In this document: piece by piece, positions 55,206-61,799 of the stretch
Layout of the letters: every line of letters starts with the position of its first letter
Numbering within the stretch: position 1 is the first letter of the stretch
Assembly: GCF_006345805.1 (NCBI RefSeq)
Contig: NC_043020.1
Coordinates: forward strand, 7,378,001-7,442,000
Origin: Octopus sinensis
Lineage: Eukaryota
Direction of reading: 5' to 3'
DNA length: 64,000 nt
Program-made: the position numbers and the translations under genes
Notes under the pieces: model-generated
Told to the model about the DNA's origin: nothing
Database searches by the model: none
Seen by the model: the letters and a program-made list of their open reading frames with translations, nothing else

Positions 55206-57457
55206 CCTGTGGACCTACAGTCACACACGTGTTTGTTTCTGTTGCTCGTTAAGGTTTGTTTGTTAACGAGCGTCCAACAGCTTGCTCCTCATTATTAGGC
55301 CTCTAATACTTTGGAATCGACCACAGCCAACACAGCAAGACAAAGAGTGAGAGAGAGAGAGAGAGTGAGGGGAAAGGAGAGAGAGAAAGAGGCAGAGGGG
55401 AAAGAGAAAGAAAGGAAGAAAGAAAGAAGGAAAGGAGATGGGGAGGGAGGCCAGCGCCGACTGAGTATTCCTTAGTTACTATGGATTCCCACAAAGACAT
55501 GACTATTTTATCTAAGACCAGCTGTATCACAACATGGTCCGTGTAGAAAGAATGTTTGATTTTCAAACCGAGGGATCATCGGTTCAATTCCAGTCAAATG
55601 CTCGTATATCGATGCTGTATTTTCTGACATACAAGATACAAGTCAATGTAATATATAGTTATTTCTTTACTACCCACAAGGGGCTAAACACAGAGGGGAC
55701 AAACAAGGACAGACAAAGGGATTAAGTCGATTACATCAACATCAGTGCGTCACTGGTACTTAATTTATCGACCCCAAAAGGATGAAAGGCAAAGTCGACC
55801 TCTGCGGAATTTGAACTCAGAACGCAGCGGTGGACGAAATACCTATTTCTTTACTACCCACAAGGGGCTAAACACAGAGGGGACAAACAAGGACAGACAC
55901 ACGGATTAAGTCGATTACATCGACTCCAGTGCGTAATTGGTACTTAATTTATCGACCCCGAAAGGATGAAAGGCAAAGTCGACCTCGGCGGAATTTGAAC
56001 TCAGAATGCAGCGGCGGACGAAATACCTCAAAGCATTTTGCCCGGCGTGCTAACGTTTCTGCCAGCTCGCCACCTTAATATATAGTGTAAACATGTTGTC
56101 CAAACAGGTGCAGAAGTACAGGGGTGGCTGTGTAGTAAGGAGTTGGAGTAAGGGAAGGTGGTGGGCTGGCAGAATCGTTAGCACGCCGGGCAGAATGCTT
56201 AGTGGTATTTCGTCTGCTGCTACGTTCTGAGTTCAAATTCCGCTGAGGTCAACTTTGCCTTTCATCCTTTCGGGGACGATAAATTAAGTACCAGTTACAC
56301 ACTGAGGTCGATGTAATCGACTTAATACCTATGTCTGTCCCTGTTTGTCCCCTCTGTGTTTAGCCCCTTGTGGGTAGTAAAGAAATAGGTATTTTGTCTG
56401 CTGCTACGTTCTGAGTTCAAATTCTGCCGAGGTCAACTTTGCCTTTCATCCTTTCGGGGGTTGATAAATTAAGTACCAGTTACACACTGGGGTTGATGTA
56501 ATCGACTTAATCTCTTTGTCTGTCCCTGTTTGTCCCCTCTATGTTGAGCCTCCCCCCTCCTGTGGGCAATAAAGAAATAAGGAGTTGGCTTCTCAATCAC
56601 ATGGCTCTGGGTTCAGTCCCATTGCATGGCACCTTGGGCAAGTGTCTTCTACTATAGCACCAAGCTGACCAAAGGATGAAAGGCAAAGTCGACCTTGGCA
56701 GAATTTGAACTCAGAACATGAAGACAAGCACATGGCTACTAAACATTTTGTCTGGGGTTGGTGCTAAGGGTTCTGACAGCATACAGCCTTAATAATGTTT
56801 TCTCTGTTGGTCACAGGGGCCGACATAGAACATACAAGGGATGCAAATACAAAGGCACAAACGGAGGGGTTTACCGTGTAAACATATAATAAAGCAATAA
56901 CAAAAATGAATAATAAAATTAAACAATTAAAATTCCCAAATAGGGGACGGGAGACTTCCAAGGGAAAAACCGTGCAAACCCCACAGAAAATCACGGTTTC
57001 CCTGACCACATAGGCAAGTGCTTGCTCCCTTTCTTACTCCACTCAGAAGCACATGCTCAAAGCAGGGCTTACTGCCTTAATAATAATCAGGATGATGATG
57101 ATGATAATGACGATGATGACGACGATGATGATGATGATGATGATATGATGATGATGATGATGATGATAATGACGATGATGACGACGATGATGATGATGAT
57201 GATAGTGATGATGATGATGATGATGATGATGATCAGTCTTTCTACTAAAGGCACAAGGACTGAAATTTTGGGGAGGGGCTAAGTCGATTACATTGATCCC
57301 CAGTACTCCGCTGGTACCTAACTTATTGACCCTGAAAGGATGAAAGGCAAAGATGACCTTGGCAGAATTTAAATTGTAAAGACGGACGAAATGTCTGCCT
57401 TTAGGTTTTGGGTATGGTACACTAACGATTCTGCCACCTCACTACCATCAATAATAA

Positions 57458-57491
<34 letters not shown>

Positions 57492-57825
57492 GGTGGTGGT
57501 GGTGATGAGGAAAAGAAGAATGATGATGATGATAATTAGCATCATCATTGTCATGATGATGATGATGATGATGCTGACAACGACGACTCAAATCAAAACT
57601 TAATTCAAGGACTTTGATGTGATCGACATGTGGAAGGTTGGTGTCACGCATTCTGGTGGCTGAATATTGGAAGGGAATGGAAAATGAAACAAAGGCATTG
57701 GACAGAAACAAAACAAAGAAAAAAAAAAGAAAAGAAAACAAGATAAAGTTGACCTATAAACGGAGAGCTGGGCTTGTATATTATGAATCAATAAAAGATA
57801 TGTTTCTGTGCGTGCAATGTGTGTA

Positions 57826-57877
<52 letters not shown>

Positions 57878-58938
57878 TACACACACACACATCATCATCA
57901 TCATCATCGTTTAGCGTCCGCTTTCCATGCTGGCATGGGTTGGATGGTTCAACTGGGGTCTGGGAAGCCAGGAGGCTGCACCAGGCTCCAGTCTGATCTG
58001 GCAATGTTTCTACGGCTGGATGCCCTTCCTAACGCCAACCACTCCGAGAGTGCAGTAGATGCTTTTTATGTGCCACCGGCACAGGGGCCAGACAAGGCTG
58101 GCAAACATCCACGATCAGATGGTGCTTTTTATGTGCCACCGGCACAGGGGCCAGACGAGGCAGACGAGGCTGGCTAACGGCCACGATCGGATGGTGCTTT
58201 TTATGTGCCACCGGCACGGAGGCCAGTTGGGGCGGCGCTGGCAACGGCCACATTCGGATGGTTCTCTTACGTGCCACCGGCACTGGTATTACACACATAT
58301 ATATAAATGTATGAGACATATGGTGTAGTGCTTGGGGTGTTGGACTCATGATTGTAAGGACTGCGGTTTTGATTCCTGGATCAGACAATGCAAAGAAATT
58401 GACCCCAGGACTTATTTTCGTTGTGAGCCTAGTATTTATTCTATCAGGCTCCTTTGCCGAACCGCTAAGTTATGGTGGGGGGACGCAAACACACCAACAT
58501 CAATTGTCAAGCGATGGTGAGGGTGGGGTGGGGCAGGCACAAACACAGACACAGACACACACACACACACACACACAAATGTATACAGGTTCAGTTTCTG
58601 TCAACCAAATCCACACACAGCAGAAGACACTTGTCCAAGGTGTCATGCAGTAGGACTGAACCTAGAACCATGTGGTTAGGAAGCAAGCTTCTTATCACAC
58701 AGCCATATATATATATATATATATATATACTCTTTTATTTGTTTCAGTCATTTGACTACAGCCATGCTGGAGCACCACCTTTTAGTCGAACAAATCTTCC
58801 CCAGGACTTATTCTTTGTAAGCCCAGTATTTATTCTATCGGTGTCTTTTTGCTGGACCACTAGATTACGGGGACATAGACACACCAGCATCGGATGTCAA
58901 ACGATGGTGGGGGGACAAACACAGACACACAAACATAT

Positions 58939-58976
<38 letters not shown>

Positions 58977-58983
<7 letters not shown>

Positions 58984-59371
58984 CTTAGTTATTTTAATAT
59001 TTCTATTATTGAAAACAAGTGGATGTATTCCACCGAAACTAGGTAAATAAAACCATCGAACAGAGATTGTCGGAAGCGACACCTACTGGCTGGCTACGCT
59101 GCATTGAAAAGGGGCAATACTCCGAAACGCGTCTGTAGCTGCCGGTCAAGTAGTGTGGAGCGACTGACCTCCCTTGTTCGAAGGTTATATGGATACAGTT
59201 TGTGTATCAAATAGCTAACTTAAGGCGATGGCCTCATGGAGCTAATAAGCGGACAGCTTTTTTCTTATTTTTATAAGAATGCCATATTAGTATGGCGATA
59301 ACTATTATTTTCCGGGAACGCTGCCGCTGTTCTCTTTTAGAGAGACTTAGTTATTTTAATATTTCTATTAT
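58977..59371 (+). mobile_element. Penelope/retrozyme-like 362-bp unit with terminal direct repeats
   Basis: 33-bp direct repeat at 58977-59009 and 59339-59371; contains a hammerhead motif; sits in (TA)/(GA) microsatellite. Confidence 0.65.
59085..59146 (+). ncRNA. Type I minimal hammerhead ribozyme, U3-A8 variant
   Basis: Stem I GCUGCA/UGUAGC (plus ACUGGC/GCCGGU beyond an internal loop), core UUGAAAA, stem II GGGG-CAAUA-CUCC, GAAA-CGCG-UC; folded by eye. Confidence 0.7.
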
Positions 59372-59382
59372 ATACATATACA

Positions 59383-59590
59383 TATCTGTAAAATAATATG
59401 TGACCTTTATTCAATAGCCAAGATAAAACTCTGAGTTTCGGATGCCGAGGTGGAAATCCACAACACCATCTCTTCGGTTATCTGGCCATCATGATTGTAA
59501 GAGATGGTGTTGTTGATTTCCACCTCGGCATCCGAAATTCAGAGTTTTATCTTGGCTATTGAATAATTATCACATATTATTTTACAGATA
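59383..59590. repeat. Long inverted repeat (92-bp arms, 24-nt spacer), Penelope-like
   Basis: 59383-59474 is the reverse complement of 59499-59590 with a few mismatches. Confidence 0.9.
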
Positions 59591-60052
59591 AATTCCTCTA
59601 TTTACATAATATTGAGGTCTCTTTCTTTCTTTTGTTATCTTACCATTTTTACCAATATATATATATACATATATACAATGGGCTTTTTTCAGTTTCCATC
59701 TACCAAATCCACTCACAAGGCTTTGGTTGGACCGAGACTATAGACATGAGTAGCTGACCCCCTACAAAACCTGGCATTGCACTCTCTTCTCGTAGTTCAA
59801 ACCCCTCTTCTCCTCGCATCATGCTGATTCCTCCAGCAGGGTTTGTAGCTTCTGCAAGTTGCATGGTGACCTTACCAGTGCCGAAGGCATCGAAAAGGTA
59901 CCTAGTCCTCACTGTGAAGTGGTTGGCATTAGGAGGGGCGTCCAGCCATGAAAATCATGCCAAAGCAGACCACTGGCGCTTAATACAGTCCTTGGACACA
60001 TCAGATCCTCTCATACCATCCAAACCATACCAGCACAGAACATGTATGTTAA

Positions 60053-60176
60053 ATGATGATGATGATGACGATGATGATGATGATGATAATGATGGTAATA
60101 ATGATGATAATGATGATGATGATGATGATGATGATGATTGATGATGATGGTAATGATGATAATGATGATGATGATA

Positions 60177-60217
<41 letters not shown>

Positions 60218-60226
60218 GATGACGAC

Positions 60227-60263
<37 letters not shown>

Positions 60264-60448
60264 GGGATGATGACGATGATGATGATGATGGTGATGATGA
60301 TGATGATGATGATGATGGTAATAATGATGATGATGATGATGACGTTGACGATGATGATGATGATAATGATATAATGATGGTAATAATGATGATAATGATA
60401 ATGATGATGATGATGATGATAATGATAAAAATGATGATGATGATGATT

Positions 60449-60487
<39 letters not shown>

Positions 60488-60542
60488 GTAATATTGATGA
60501 TAATGATGATGATGATGATGATGGTAATATTGATGATAATGA

Positions 60543-60584
<42 letters not shown>

Positions 60585-60615
60585 TTGATGATGATAATGA
60601 TGATGATGATGATGA
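60053..60615. repeat. ~560-bp (GAT)n microsatellite extending from an RTE-type tail
   Basis: Directly follows a diverged RTE 3' end at 59870-60052. Confidence 0.9.
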
Positions 60616-61414
60616 CAATATAGCAAAATCAGTTATGACAACGAGTGTTCCAGTTGATCTGATCAATGGAACGGCCTGCTCATGAAACTGAAATTAACGT
60701 TCAAGTGGCTGAGTACTCCACAGACGGACGTACCCTTAATGTAGTTCTCAGGTAAAATTTAGCAAGACATACTGAATGTGATAGGGCTGGCTCCTTTGAA
60801 TCACAGGTACAATGCATTTTTGCCAACCGAGTGAACTGGCACCGTGTGAAAATAAAGTATCTTGCTCAAGGACACAGTGCACTGCAAGATGTTGAACTCA
60901 TGGCCTTACGACCTTGACCTGGATATCCCTGACCACTTAGCCACACACCTTTACTGATGAGGATATATAAGCTGAAACATGGTTGTGTGGCTAAGAAGTT
61001 TACCTTCACAGTCATGTGGCTTCGGGTTCAGTTCCACTATGTGGTACGTTGGGTGAATGTGTTCTACTATTTCCCTTGGGCAACCAAAGCCTTGTGAGTG
61101 GATTCGATAGATGGAAACTGAAAAGAAGCCCAACAGGTATAATTTGAACAAACCATCATATGTCAGTTAATAGAAAAAAGGTGGGCTAACTTTTGCCTTA
61201 TGTTCAGTATACAATTCCTGTATGTACGCACACACACACACACACACCACACCCACACACCACACACACACATACACACCACATACACACCACAGACACA
61301 CCACATACCACATCAGTTTATCATATATGTATATTATACATACATACATACAGACACATAGACAACAGATTCATAGATAGATAGACAGCCATAAATATAT
61401 ATATATATATATAG

Positions 61415-61447
<33 letters not shown>

Positions 61448-61799
61448 TATATATATATACATATACATACATACATGCATGCACACATACATACATATGT
61501 ATATTTATGCACTAGCAGAATGCCTGGCATTGCCTAGACTGAAAAGTGATCTGTAAATAGCCCATAATTACTGTTAATGACTTAACGAAGACATATTTAG
61601 TTTAATAGAACACTAATGGATTTCTCTTACAACTTTCTCAGCCACAAAAGTAATGAAGCTGTTTTGACAATTTCGTTGCTGGTAATCTGGTTGCCAATGT
61701 CCTCTGTTATTGATACCTGTTTAATATTAATCCGGTAGTCAGTCCAAAGTGAAGCTGTTTGAAGACAAGGAGGAATTTCATTGGTTGTTGTTATTGCTA

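What the first reader, a model, noticed from the sequence alone, without database searches (positions are those of the whole stretch)
58977..59371. Retrozyme-like unit: complete U3-A8 hammerhead within a 362-bp monomer plus 33-bp overhang
Seen: a full type I hammerhead can be drawn at 59085-59146. Stem I GCUGCA/UGUAGC abuts the core UUGAAAA; stem II is GGGG/CUCC with loop CAAUA; then GAAA, palindromic CGCG, and a predicted cut after UC (59133). The usual C3-G8 pair is replaced by a compensatory U3-A8 pair, which argues for selection rather than decay. The unit starts and ends with the same 33 nt (period 362), has no ORF in the track, contains further hairpins (e.g. GCCATA-TTAG-TATGGC) and sits in a microsatellite. 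Known: minimal hammerheads with palindromic stem III occur in Penelope-like elements and in metazoan non-LTR retrozymes that form small circular RNAs. Inference: this is a ~1.1-mer reverse-transcribed from a 362-nt circular or tandem RNA, i.e. a possible cephalopod retrozyme family.
Basis: partly seen in the sequence, partly recalled or inferred. Interest (0 to 1): 0.75.

Follow-up and report, generated by a model that had tools for sequence, protein, structure and literature searches.

The report
Penelope-pasted hammerhead retrozyme, LINE-targeted
This is one truncated copy of a young, protein-free, 362-base jumping repeat that carries a predicted self-cutting RNA; its copies end at two fixed points in TA repeats, as if pasted by a borrowed Penelope-type enzyme, and a second jumping gene lands at one exact spot in it, likely its transcription start.

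Summary
The hammerhead, 362-bp period and 33-bp repeat are real. The unit is a young family: 1,982 core-motif matches in the genome against 2 in the control, with a free N7 and compensatory changes in stems I and II. The 33-bp overhang is incidental: this copy is 5'-truncated and stops at one of two fixed family ends (unit 33 and 332, 63 nt apart), neither at the ribozyme cut. Two-armed insertions pair one end of each kind (59 of 60 with both ends fixed), abut (TA)n and show 9-14 bp duplications: a Penelope-type footprint. An intact Penelope-type element with its own U3-A8 motif is in the genome but shares no significant sequence with the unit. An L1/Tx1-type LINE sits at one site of the unit (30 of 30 loci), 57 nt behind a U1/U2-type promoter motif; sister LINEs sit at U1 and U2 starts. 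Cleavage, expression and circles are untested. Verdict: new member of metazoan non-LTR retrozymes. This scan noted the same kind of element and LINE on other DNA of this and other genomes.

The parts
58977..59338 (+). One 362-bp unit of the repeat family (5'-truncated single arm; the start at unit position 1 joins a short (AG)n run)
   Evidence: 128 matches from 40 scored of 855 candidates, 97-100% identical; subfamilies down to 81%
59012..59027 (+). U1/U2-type promoter-like motif (motif A at 59015); predicted, not shown to function
   Evidence: best-scoring site on both strands of the circular unit with a matrix from 9 U1/U2 upstream regions of G000 (11.0 bits; leave-one-out range 5.8-21.4; 6 of 20,000 shuffles)
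59072..59088 (+). 17-bp target that an L1/Tx1-type LINE duplicates when it inserts (empty in this copy); its first bases are the predicted transcription start
   Evidence: distance to the promoter-like motif
59083..59153 (+). Type I hammerhead motif with U3-A8 core, 6-bp proximal stem I plus distal extension, 4-bp stem II, minimal palindromic stem III; predicted cut after 59133
59281..59308 (+). Hairpin 59281-59296 followed by fixed family end B (unit 332, 59308), a likely reverse-transcription start
59309..59371 (+). 63-nt 'tail' between the two fixed ends; includes the 33-bp repeat (59339-59371); 59371 is fixed end A (unit 33), where this copy meets TA-rich flank

Best explanation
The stretch is a 5'-truncated, one-armed copy of a young non-coding tandem repeat family with a conserved U3-A8 hammerhead motif, likely transcribed from an snRNA-type promoter, predicted to self-cleave in tandem transcripts, and likely pasted into TA repeats by a borrowed Penelope-type reverse transcriptase-endonuclease. 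Shown: family size and youth, hammerhead conservation, two fixed 3' ends 63 nt apart, scattered 5' ends, head-to-head arms with one end of each kind, (TA)n flanks, 9-14 bp duplications, both arms from one subfamily, a LINE at one site. Inferred: RNA polymerase II starts near unit 96-100; read-through of arrays gives RNA with several hammerheads, whose palindromic stems III pair as dimers and release 362-nt monomers or multimers that may circularise; the Penelope enzyme cuts both target strands about 10 bp apart, and each 3' end primes cDNA inside the RNA, one at each of the two sites; copying continues over several units (round a circle or along a multimer) until it drops off, and the two cDNAs are joined head to head or one is joined to the flank. 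This window's copy has one hammerhead only, so on its own it would not release a monomer. The LINE is a passenger that likely targets snRNA-type starts and borrows the promoter.
For: Family: 159 exact 42-nt copies, control 0; 1,982 vs 2. Constraint: in 25 picked units U3, U4, G5, A6, A8, A9, G12, U16.1 and C17 are invariant, A13-A15 are kept in 24 of 25, N7 is A5/C17/T3; 98.5% of cells paired, 4 of 19 pairs with changes on both sides, slid controls 22-50%. Ends: of 106 distinct insertions 70 are two-armed: 59 A+B, 0 A+A, 1 B+B, 10 with another end; in the two sets not chosen by end, 43 of 43 with both ends fixed are A+B. 141 of 160 fixed ends abut TA-rich sequence against 7 of 36 5' ends. Duplications of 9-14 bp at L016, L018, L035, L040, L097, L110, L130. 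Arms of one insertion differ by 1.2% (n = 31) against 7.2% between insertions (n = 981 pairs). These traits match those described for Penelope-like elements (PMC8557442, passages), whose tail lies between two RT start sites (PMC11167929, part 2 of 4). G000 holds an open 781-aa RT + GIY-YIG frame, and its family has a U3-A8 motif and two (TA)n ends about 40 nt apart (12 ends seen). Promoter; sister LINEs at the first bases of U1 (L253) and U2 (L252, L254). Period-2 variants in L080 and L045 and period-4 in L121 fit multimer templates.
Against: No autonomous element that carries the unit as its terminal repeat was found (30 GIY-YIG loci of 147 matches, and 20 longer regions); unit ends and the candidate Penelope ends are no more alike than shuffles (76-287 of 300 reach the score). 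No Rfam hit. Covariation counts sequences of a few related subfamilies, and the number of pairs with double changes does not beat the shuffle (304 of 500); stem III shows none. The promoter motif differs from the U1/U2 core hexamer at 2 of 6 places and lies in a predicted hairpin, which could explain its conservation. Private variants shared by some units of one arm only (L106) and the higher-order periods can come from DNA-level duplication. The tail (63 nt) is longer than the 30-40 bp in print. In Xenopus only 1 of 9 tested retrozyme dimers cleaved in vitro (bioRxiv 2026.07.22.740005).
Confidence: 0.75

Rival explanations
1. The family is the detached terminal repeat of a Penelope element (present but unfound, or lost), moved as linear multimeric RNA; the hammerhead is slow or protein-assisted and circles play no part.
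For: Ends ignore the cut site; in the anole Penelope, hammerhead mutants did not affect insertion in vitro and uncut RNA was the main substrate (PMC11167929); 24 of 57 Xenopus retrozyme families matched known elements, 21 of the 22 matched being Penelope-like; stem III is minimal.
Against: No coding element attached to the unit other than the LINE in 106 insertions; the hammerhead has canonical stem sizes with a loop-bulge pair, in a rod-like fold with compensatory changes outside the ribozyme; the unit has its own promoter-like motif.
Confidence: 0.17
2. The embedded L1/Tx1-type LINE is the enzyme source that mobilises the repeat.
For: All 30 LINE loci examined lie in the unit; the LINE is young with long open frames.
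Against: The LINE makes its own 17-bp duplication at unit 96-112, stacks at that site (L134, L140) and recurs unit after unit (L123), which is the pattern of a later invader; the repeat's ends have no poly-A and come as paired fixed ends in (TA)n; close sisters of the LINE sit at U1, U2 and other starts.
Confidence: 0.04
3. A satellite or minisatellite spread by DNA recombination, with a decayed or chance hammerhead look-alike.
For: Tandem arrays up to about 11 units; higher-order periods; no Rfam hit.
Against: Dispersed over many contigs, fixed 3' and scattered 5' ends, inverted arms, target duplications, free N7 with a fixed core, compensatory pairs.
Confidence: 0.04

Closest known systems
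Metazoan non-LTR retrozymes (coral, mussel, axolotl; PMC7229834, parts 2-3 of 6 and passages read; bioRxiv 10.64898/2026.07.22.740005, parts 1-3 of 5 read)
   Same: Tandem non-coding units of 150-450 bp, type I hammerhead in each unit, low GC, highly self-paired fold, duplications longer than 4 bp; weak palindromic stem III as in axolotl HHR_Amex1; Penelope elements proposed as mobilisers.
   Different: U3-A8 core; insertion-level Penelope footprint with strictly paired ends, not described in the parts read; circles and cleavage shown there, not here.
Endonuclease-bearing Penelope-like elements and their non-autonomous forms (PMC8557442 passages; PMC11167929 part 2; PMC4209133 passages)
   Same: 5' truncation, partial tandems, inverted 5'-truncated copy, tail at one end only, (TA)n targets, two internal RT start sites, U3-A8 hammerhead variant (Schistosoma Cercyon).
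   Different: No ORF; tail 63 nt rather than 30-40; full-size hammerhead rather than minimal; no sequence link to an autonomous family found.
Target-specific Tx1-clade LINEs: Tx1L in Tx1D, Keno in U2 genes, Tx1-Mar in Mariner-N4 (PMC4494074, passages)
   Same: APE + RT + zinc domain ORF2, zinc-knuckle ORF1, one exact site in a multicopy element, target duplication.
   Different: The target is a hammerhead repeat, and sisters use the first bases of U1, U2 and another hammerhead repeat; 0 papers held 'retrozyme' with 'Tx1' and 1 unrelated pipeline paper held the four terms. Clade not tested by a tree.
Newt satellite 2 (passage in PMC2220036 citing Coats et al. 1994; the original not read)
   Same: Hammerhead repeat reported to be transcribed from an internal snRNA-type promoter.
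   Different: Here the promoter is only predicted.

Membership tests
Metazoan non-LTR retrozyme | Type I hammerhead in each unit | tested here: met
   Rfam models do not detect it
Metazoan non-LTR retrozyme | Short (150-450 bp) tandem units, many genomic copies | tested here: met
   362-365 bp units, arrays of 1 to about 11
Metazoan non-LTR retrozyme | No protein coding, no LTR structure | tested here: met
   (ORFs); end structure; PBS and PPT were not searched for separately
Metazoan non-LTR retrozyme | At least two consecutive hammerhead units (the 2026 preprint's 'active' criterion) | tested here: met
   met by the family (L080, L106, L121, L130); not met by this window's copy, which has one hammerhead
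Metazoan non-LTR retrozyme | Self-cleavage of the RNA | not testable with these tools
   needs in vitro transcription
Metazoan non-LTR retrozyme | Expressed as monomer circles | tested here: inconclusive
   392-letter contigs in X2 and X18, the X18 one wrapping on itself with a 30-letter overlap; these runs are only guessed to be RNA and tandem DNA gives the same
Penelope-mobilised element | 5' truncation, tandems, inverted 5'-truncated copy | tested here: met
   70 of 106 insertions two-armed; scattered 5' ends
Penelope-mobilised element | Tail at one end only, between two fixed ends; microsatellite bias | tested here: met
   59 of 60 A+B; 141 of 160 fixed ends TA-rich; tail 63 nt, longer than 30-40
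Penelope-mobilised element | 3' end similar to an autonomous family | tested here: inconclusive
   none in 50 GIY-YIG loci or regions; only 150 of 5,029 candidates were scored
Autonomous Penelope-like element | RT + GIY-YIG ORF | tested here: not met
   no such ORF in the unit; the only coding insert found is APE-RT
Tx1-clade target-specific LINE (the insert) | APE + RT + zf-RVT ORF2, zinc-knuckle ORF1 | tested here: met
   nearest solved structures are L1 ORF2 (E 1e-53) ahead of R2 (E 1e-23)
Tx1-clade target-specific LINE (the insert) | One exact target with duplication | tested here: met
   30 of 30 3' ends; 5' junction at unit 112 in L114, L122-L126, L138, L139, L143, L160
Tx1-clade target-specific LINE (the insert) | Falls in the Tx1 clade of an RT tree | not tested
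   no reference sequences fetched; the label Tx1 is recalled and taken from PMC4494074 and earlier notes

The most novel reading that the evidence does not exclude
Each insertion is the print of one asymmetric Penelope enzyme dimer that grips a single retrozyme circle, primes both cut target strands at two different fixed sites 63 nt apart and rolls round monomer, dimer or tetramer circles; the circle carries its own snRNA-type promoter, which a LINE lineage has learned to target as it does U1 and U2 starts, giving a three-layer system (Penelope enzyme, ribozyme circle, promoter-seeking LINE).
Probability: 0.35. Interest if true: 0.72.

Novelty: new member of a known kind. Interest (0 to 1): 0.52.

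Why it matters
Which enzyme spreads animal retrozymes, and how Penelope elements build inverted ends with a one-sided tail, are stated as open in the papers read (PMC7229834; PMC8557442; bioRxiv 2026.07.22.740005). This family gives a short template, two exact predicted priming sites, a strict pairing rule, a candidate enzyme in the same genome and a predicted promoter, so both questions can be tested in vitro. The LINE adds a target class (a ribozyme repeat's predicted start) that my searches did not find in print.

Tried and rejected
Rfam: no hammerhead match in 57000-61500 or in the unit alone. The 5.35-kb insert was first read as the autonomous Penelope parent; its domains are those of a LINE, so rejected. 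My idea that the two flanking hammerheads cut out the LINE transcript was dropped in favour of promoter borrowing after earlier notes; L134 and L140, where the target is followed directly by another LINE, also fit it poorly. Ends set by the ribozyme cut: not supported. The cluster of 5' ends at unit 194-212 (22 of 122) was picked after seeing the data and is only a lead. A C3-G8 sister family with the same stem III: none found; the 12 matches are unrelated motifs or chance. Search for a Penelope element with the unit as its end: none; the unit copies near GIY-YIG genes in L193 and L203 are separate insertions in the opposite orientation. Expression: no RNA holder listed; contigs cannot show strand, start or circle. 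Empty-site test for this copy with DNA contigs: uninformative, contigs break at the simple repeats. A look-alike of the U1 motif at unit 76-82 was rejected (it would put the start inside the core and most subfamilies lack it). Look-ups of earlier notes by sequence and near this place returned nothing. Supplements of the papers were not read; retrozyme lists there could include this family.

Full report
Observation. Stem I extends to 59083/59153 beyond a UAC/U internal loop. Stems I and II have pair probabilities of 0.91-1.0 in a 75-nt piece and in the circularised monomer. The plus strand folds at z = -6.66, the minus strand at -4.84. The 33-bp repeat with spacing 362 is exact. No ORF of 25 aa or more lies inside the unit. 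Rfam finds nothing; the hammerhead numbering and the role of the C3-G8 pair are established knowledge, the latter also stated in PMC11167929 (part 2 of 4).

Family. A DNA search of the own genome G000 gave 128 matches from 40 scored of 855 candidates, 97-100% identical, many in tandem with period 362. The exact 42-nt motif occurs 159 times (control 0); the loose U3-A8 pattern 1,982 times (control 2); the C3-G8 version 12 times (control 3). Subfamilies reach down to 81% identity. In 25 units picked for diversity the core is invariant except N7 (A 5, C 17, T 3) and one decayed copy at A13-A15. Of 19 named pairs, 98.5% of 471 cells pair and 4 pairs change on both sides (one each in the two distal stem I helices, proximal stem I and stem II); slid controls pair at 22-50%; the count of such pairs does not exceed the shuffle (304 of 500), and related sequences inflate the cell counts. 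RNAalifold finds 7 of 81 pairs with double changes, three of them outside the ribozyme. Twenty public runs of 12 studies and 7 coded organisms hold the sequence.

Ends. I mapped the unit on loci L001-L060 and L073-L132, dropped clusters cut by a locus edge or with identical flanks, and kept 106 insertions; a few may be segmental duplicates (L084/L085, the two in L109), and halves of LINE-split elements count as one-armed or 'other'. 3' ends fall at unit 33 (A) or 332 (B), 63 nt apart in the tandem; both follow the motif CTATTAT in this subfamily. Seventy insertions are head-to-head pairs: 59 A+B, 0 A+A, 1 B+B (L131), 10 with another end. The set is biased to end A; in the set and the contig-1 survey, which are not, 43 of 43 with both ends fixed are A+B. 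Of 36 one-armed pieces 21 end at A, 10 at B, 5 elsewhere. 141 of 160 fixed ends abut TA-rich sequence against 7 of 36 5' ends. Where flanks are complex, duplications of 9-14 bp are seen at seven loci. Arms of one insertion differ by 1.2% (31 cases), arms of different insertions by 7.2% (981 pairs). Inner 5' ends are spread over the unit and not clearly enriched at the cut (6 of 122, 3.1 expected, P = 0.09). The window's copy is thus a single arm that starts at end A and was truncated 395 nt later beside an (AG)n run; its 33-bp overlap is incidental, and with one hammerhead it would not release a monomer by itself.

Mechanism of insertion (inferred). 5' truncation, partial tandems, an inverted truncated copy, a tail at one end only and (TA)n targets are the described marks of Penelope-like elements (PMC8557442, abstract and passages). 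In the anole element the tail is the stretch between two internal RT start sites, the protein is modelled as a dimer, and uncut RNA is the main substrate (PMC11167929). The simplest reading is a staggered double cut whose two 3' ends each prime cDNA inside the RNA, one at A and one at B. G000 holds such an enzyme: open 780-781-aa RT + GIY-YIG frames with a Cys-rich linker (the assignment to the Neptune clade is from the motif described and was not tested by a tree). Its family has a U3-A8 motif with palindromic stem III and two ends about 40 nt apart at (TA)n (12 ends printed), but these ends are not significantly like the unit's, so it is a candidate only. Arrays with alternating variants (period 2 in L080 and L045, period 4 in L121) fit multimeric templates, circular or linear, or later DNA duplication; L106, with variants confined to four inner units of one arm, favours the last in that case.

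The LINE. A 5.35-kb element with a zinc-knuckle ORF1 and an APE-RT-zf-RVT ORF2 (nearest structures L1 ORF2) interrupts the unit after position 112 and resumes at 96, a 17-bp duplication (window 59072-59088). Searching with its last 372 bases, target excluded, gave 40 matches of 349 candidates; all 30 loci fetched are followed by the target (L133 is the query's own locus, five lie in one cluster on C3, and these are the copies closest to the query). It stacks at the site (L134, L140), recurs unit after unit (L123) and occurs in a diverged subfamily (L158, L162). Tx1-clade LINEs that target other transposons or U2 are known (PMC4494074, passages).

Promoter (lead from earlier notes, tested here). 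U1 and U2 genes of G000 (40 loci) share a motif at -57 to -61. A matrix from 9 representatives scores its best site in the whole circular unit, both strands, at unit 39 (window 59015): 11.0 bits, next 7.1, leave-one-out range 5.8-21.4, 6 of 20,000 shuffles in a 7-position window. That predicts a start at unit 96-100, where the LINE's duplication begins. Of 20 sister LINE loci fetched, one has its 5' junction in the first 17 bases of U1, one sits at the first base of U2, 11 sit at the start of another hammerhead-like repeat (several showing the same upstream motif), and 7 have targets I did not identify. An snRNA-type promoter is reported for newt satellite 2 (passage in PMC2220036; original not read). 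Promoter function is not shown.

Expression. No listed holder is on record as RNA. Two runs guessed to be RNA hold a 392-letter contig, and the one in X18 wraps on itself (362 + 30); tandem DNA would give the same, so this is inconclusive.

Comparison. The element meets the testable features of metazoan non-LTR retrozymes (PMC7229834, parts 2-3 of 6 and passages; bioRxiv 10.64898/2026.07.22.740005, parts 1-3 of 5), which both propose Penelope elements as mobilisers without insertion-level data in the parts read. U3-A8 is in print for Schistosoma Penelope hammerheads (PMC4209133, passages). Searches for an octopus or cephalopod retrozyme and for a Tx1 LINE in a retrozyme listed no paper on either; the library lacks most subscription papers and supplements were not read. 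Earlier notes of this scan describe the same kind of element, the paired ends and the LINE on other DNA; whether e1-8807173 is this very family I could not tell (one search returned nothing).

Verdict. Real, a new member of a known kind, with an unusually clean mechanistic footprint. Interest 0.52; 0.72 if the asymmetric-dimer, rolling-circle and promoter-targeting reading holds (probability 0.35).

Noticed in passing
window 59383-59590: Inverted repeat with 92-nt arms, 95% complementary, 24 nt apart, directly right of the unit; high depth in DNA contigs, so likely a MITE-like repeat.
   Followed up: no
window about 58734-58960 (and a look-alike about 394 bp upstream): Very abundant SINE-like repeat ending in CA/TA runs; the retrozyme copy sits at its simple-repeat tail.
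   Followed up: no
L255-L265 (for example L255:300-600, minus strand): Another hammerhead-like repeat with a U3-G8 core, targeted at its start by a sister LINE about 83% identical; three loci are stacked LINEs.
   Followed up: partly
L253, L252, L254: Sister LINEs joined to the first bases of U1 and U2 genes.
   Followed up: partly
L266-L272: More distant sister LINEs with other, unidentified targets, some with short duplications.
   Followed up: no
L197, L199, L170, L182, L190-L192: Young Penelope-type family with open 780-781-aa frames, a U3-A8 hammerhead-like motif and two (TA)n ends about 40 nt apart.
   Followed up: partly
L194:4139-5824: Decayed two-armed Penelope-type insertion with U3-A8 motifs on both arms.
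   Followed up: partly
L061, L062, L064, L065, L071: Canonical C3-G8 minimal hammerhead-like motifs with the same palindromic stem III, unrelated to the unit; two in L064/L065 lie 1.2 kb apart.
   Followed up: no
G000:C3:72.50-72.53 Mb (L123, L124, L138, L141, L143, L148, L160): A two-armed repeat array in which nearly every unit holds a full-length LINE, about 30 kb in all.
   Followed up: partly
unit positions 194-212 (window 59170-59188): Cluster of 5' truncation points (22 of 122), inside the 3' side of the long predicted rod; window chosen after the fact.
   Followed up: no
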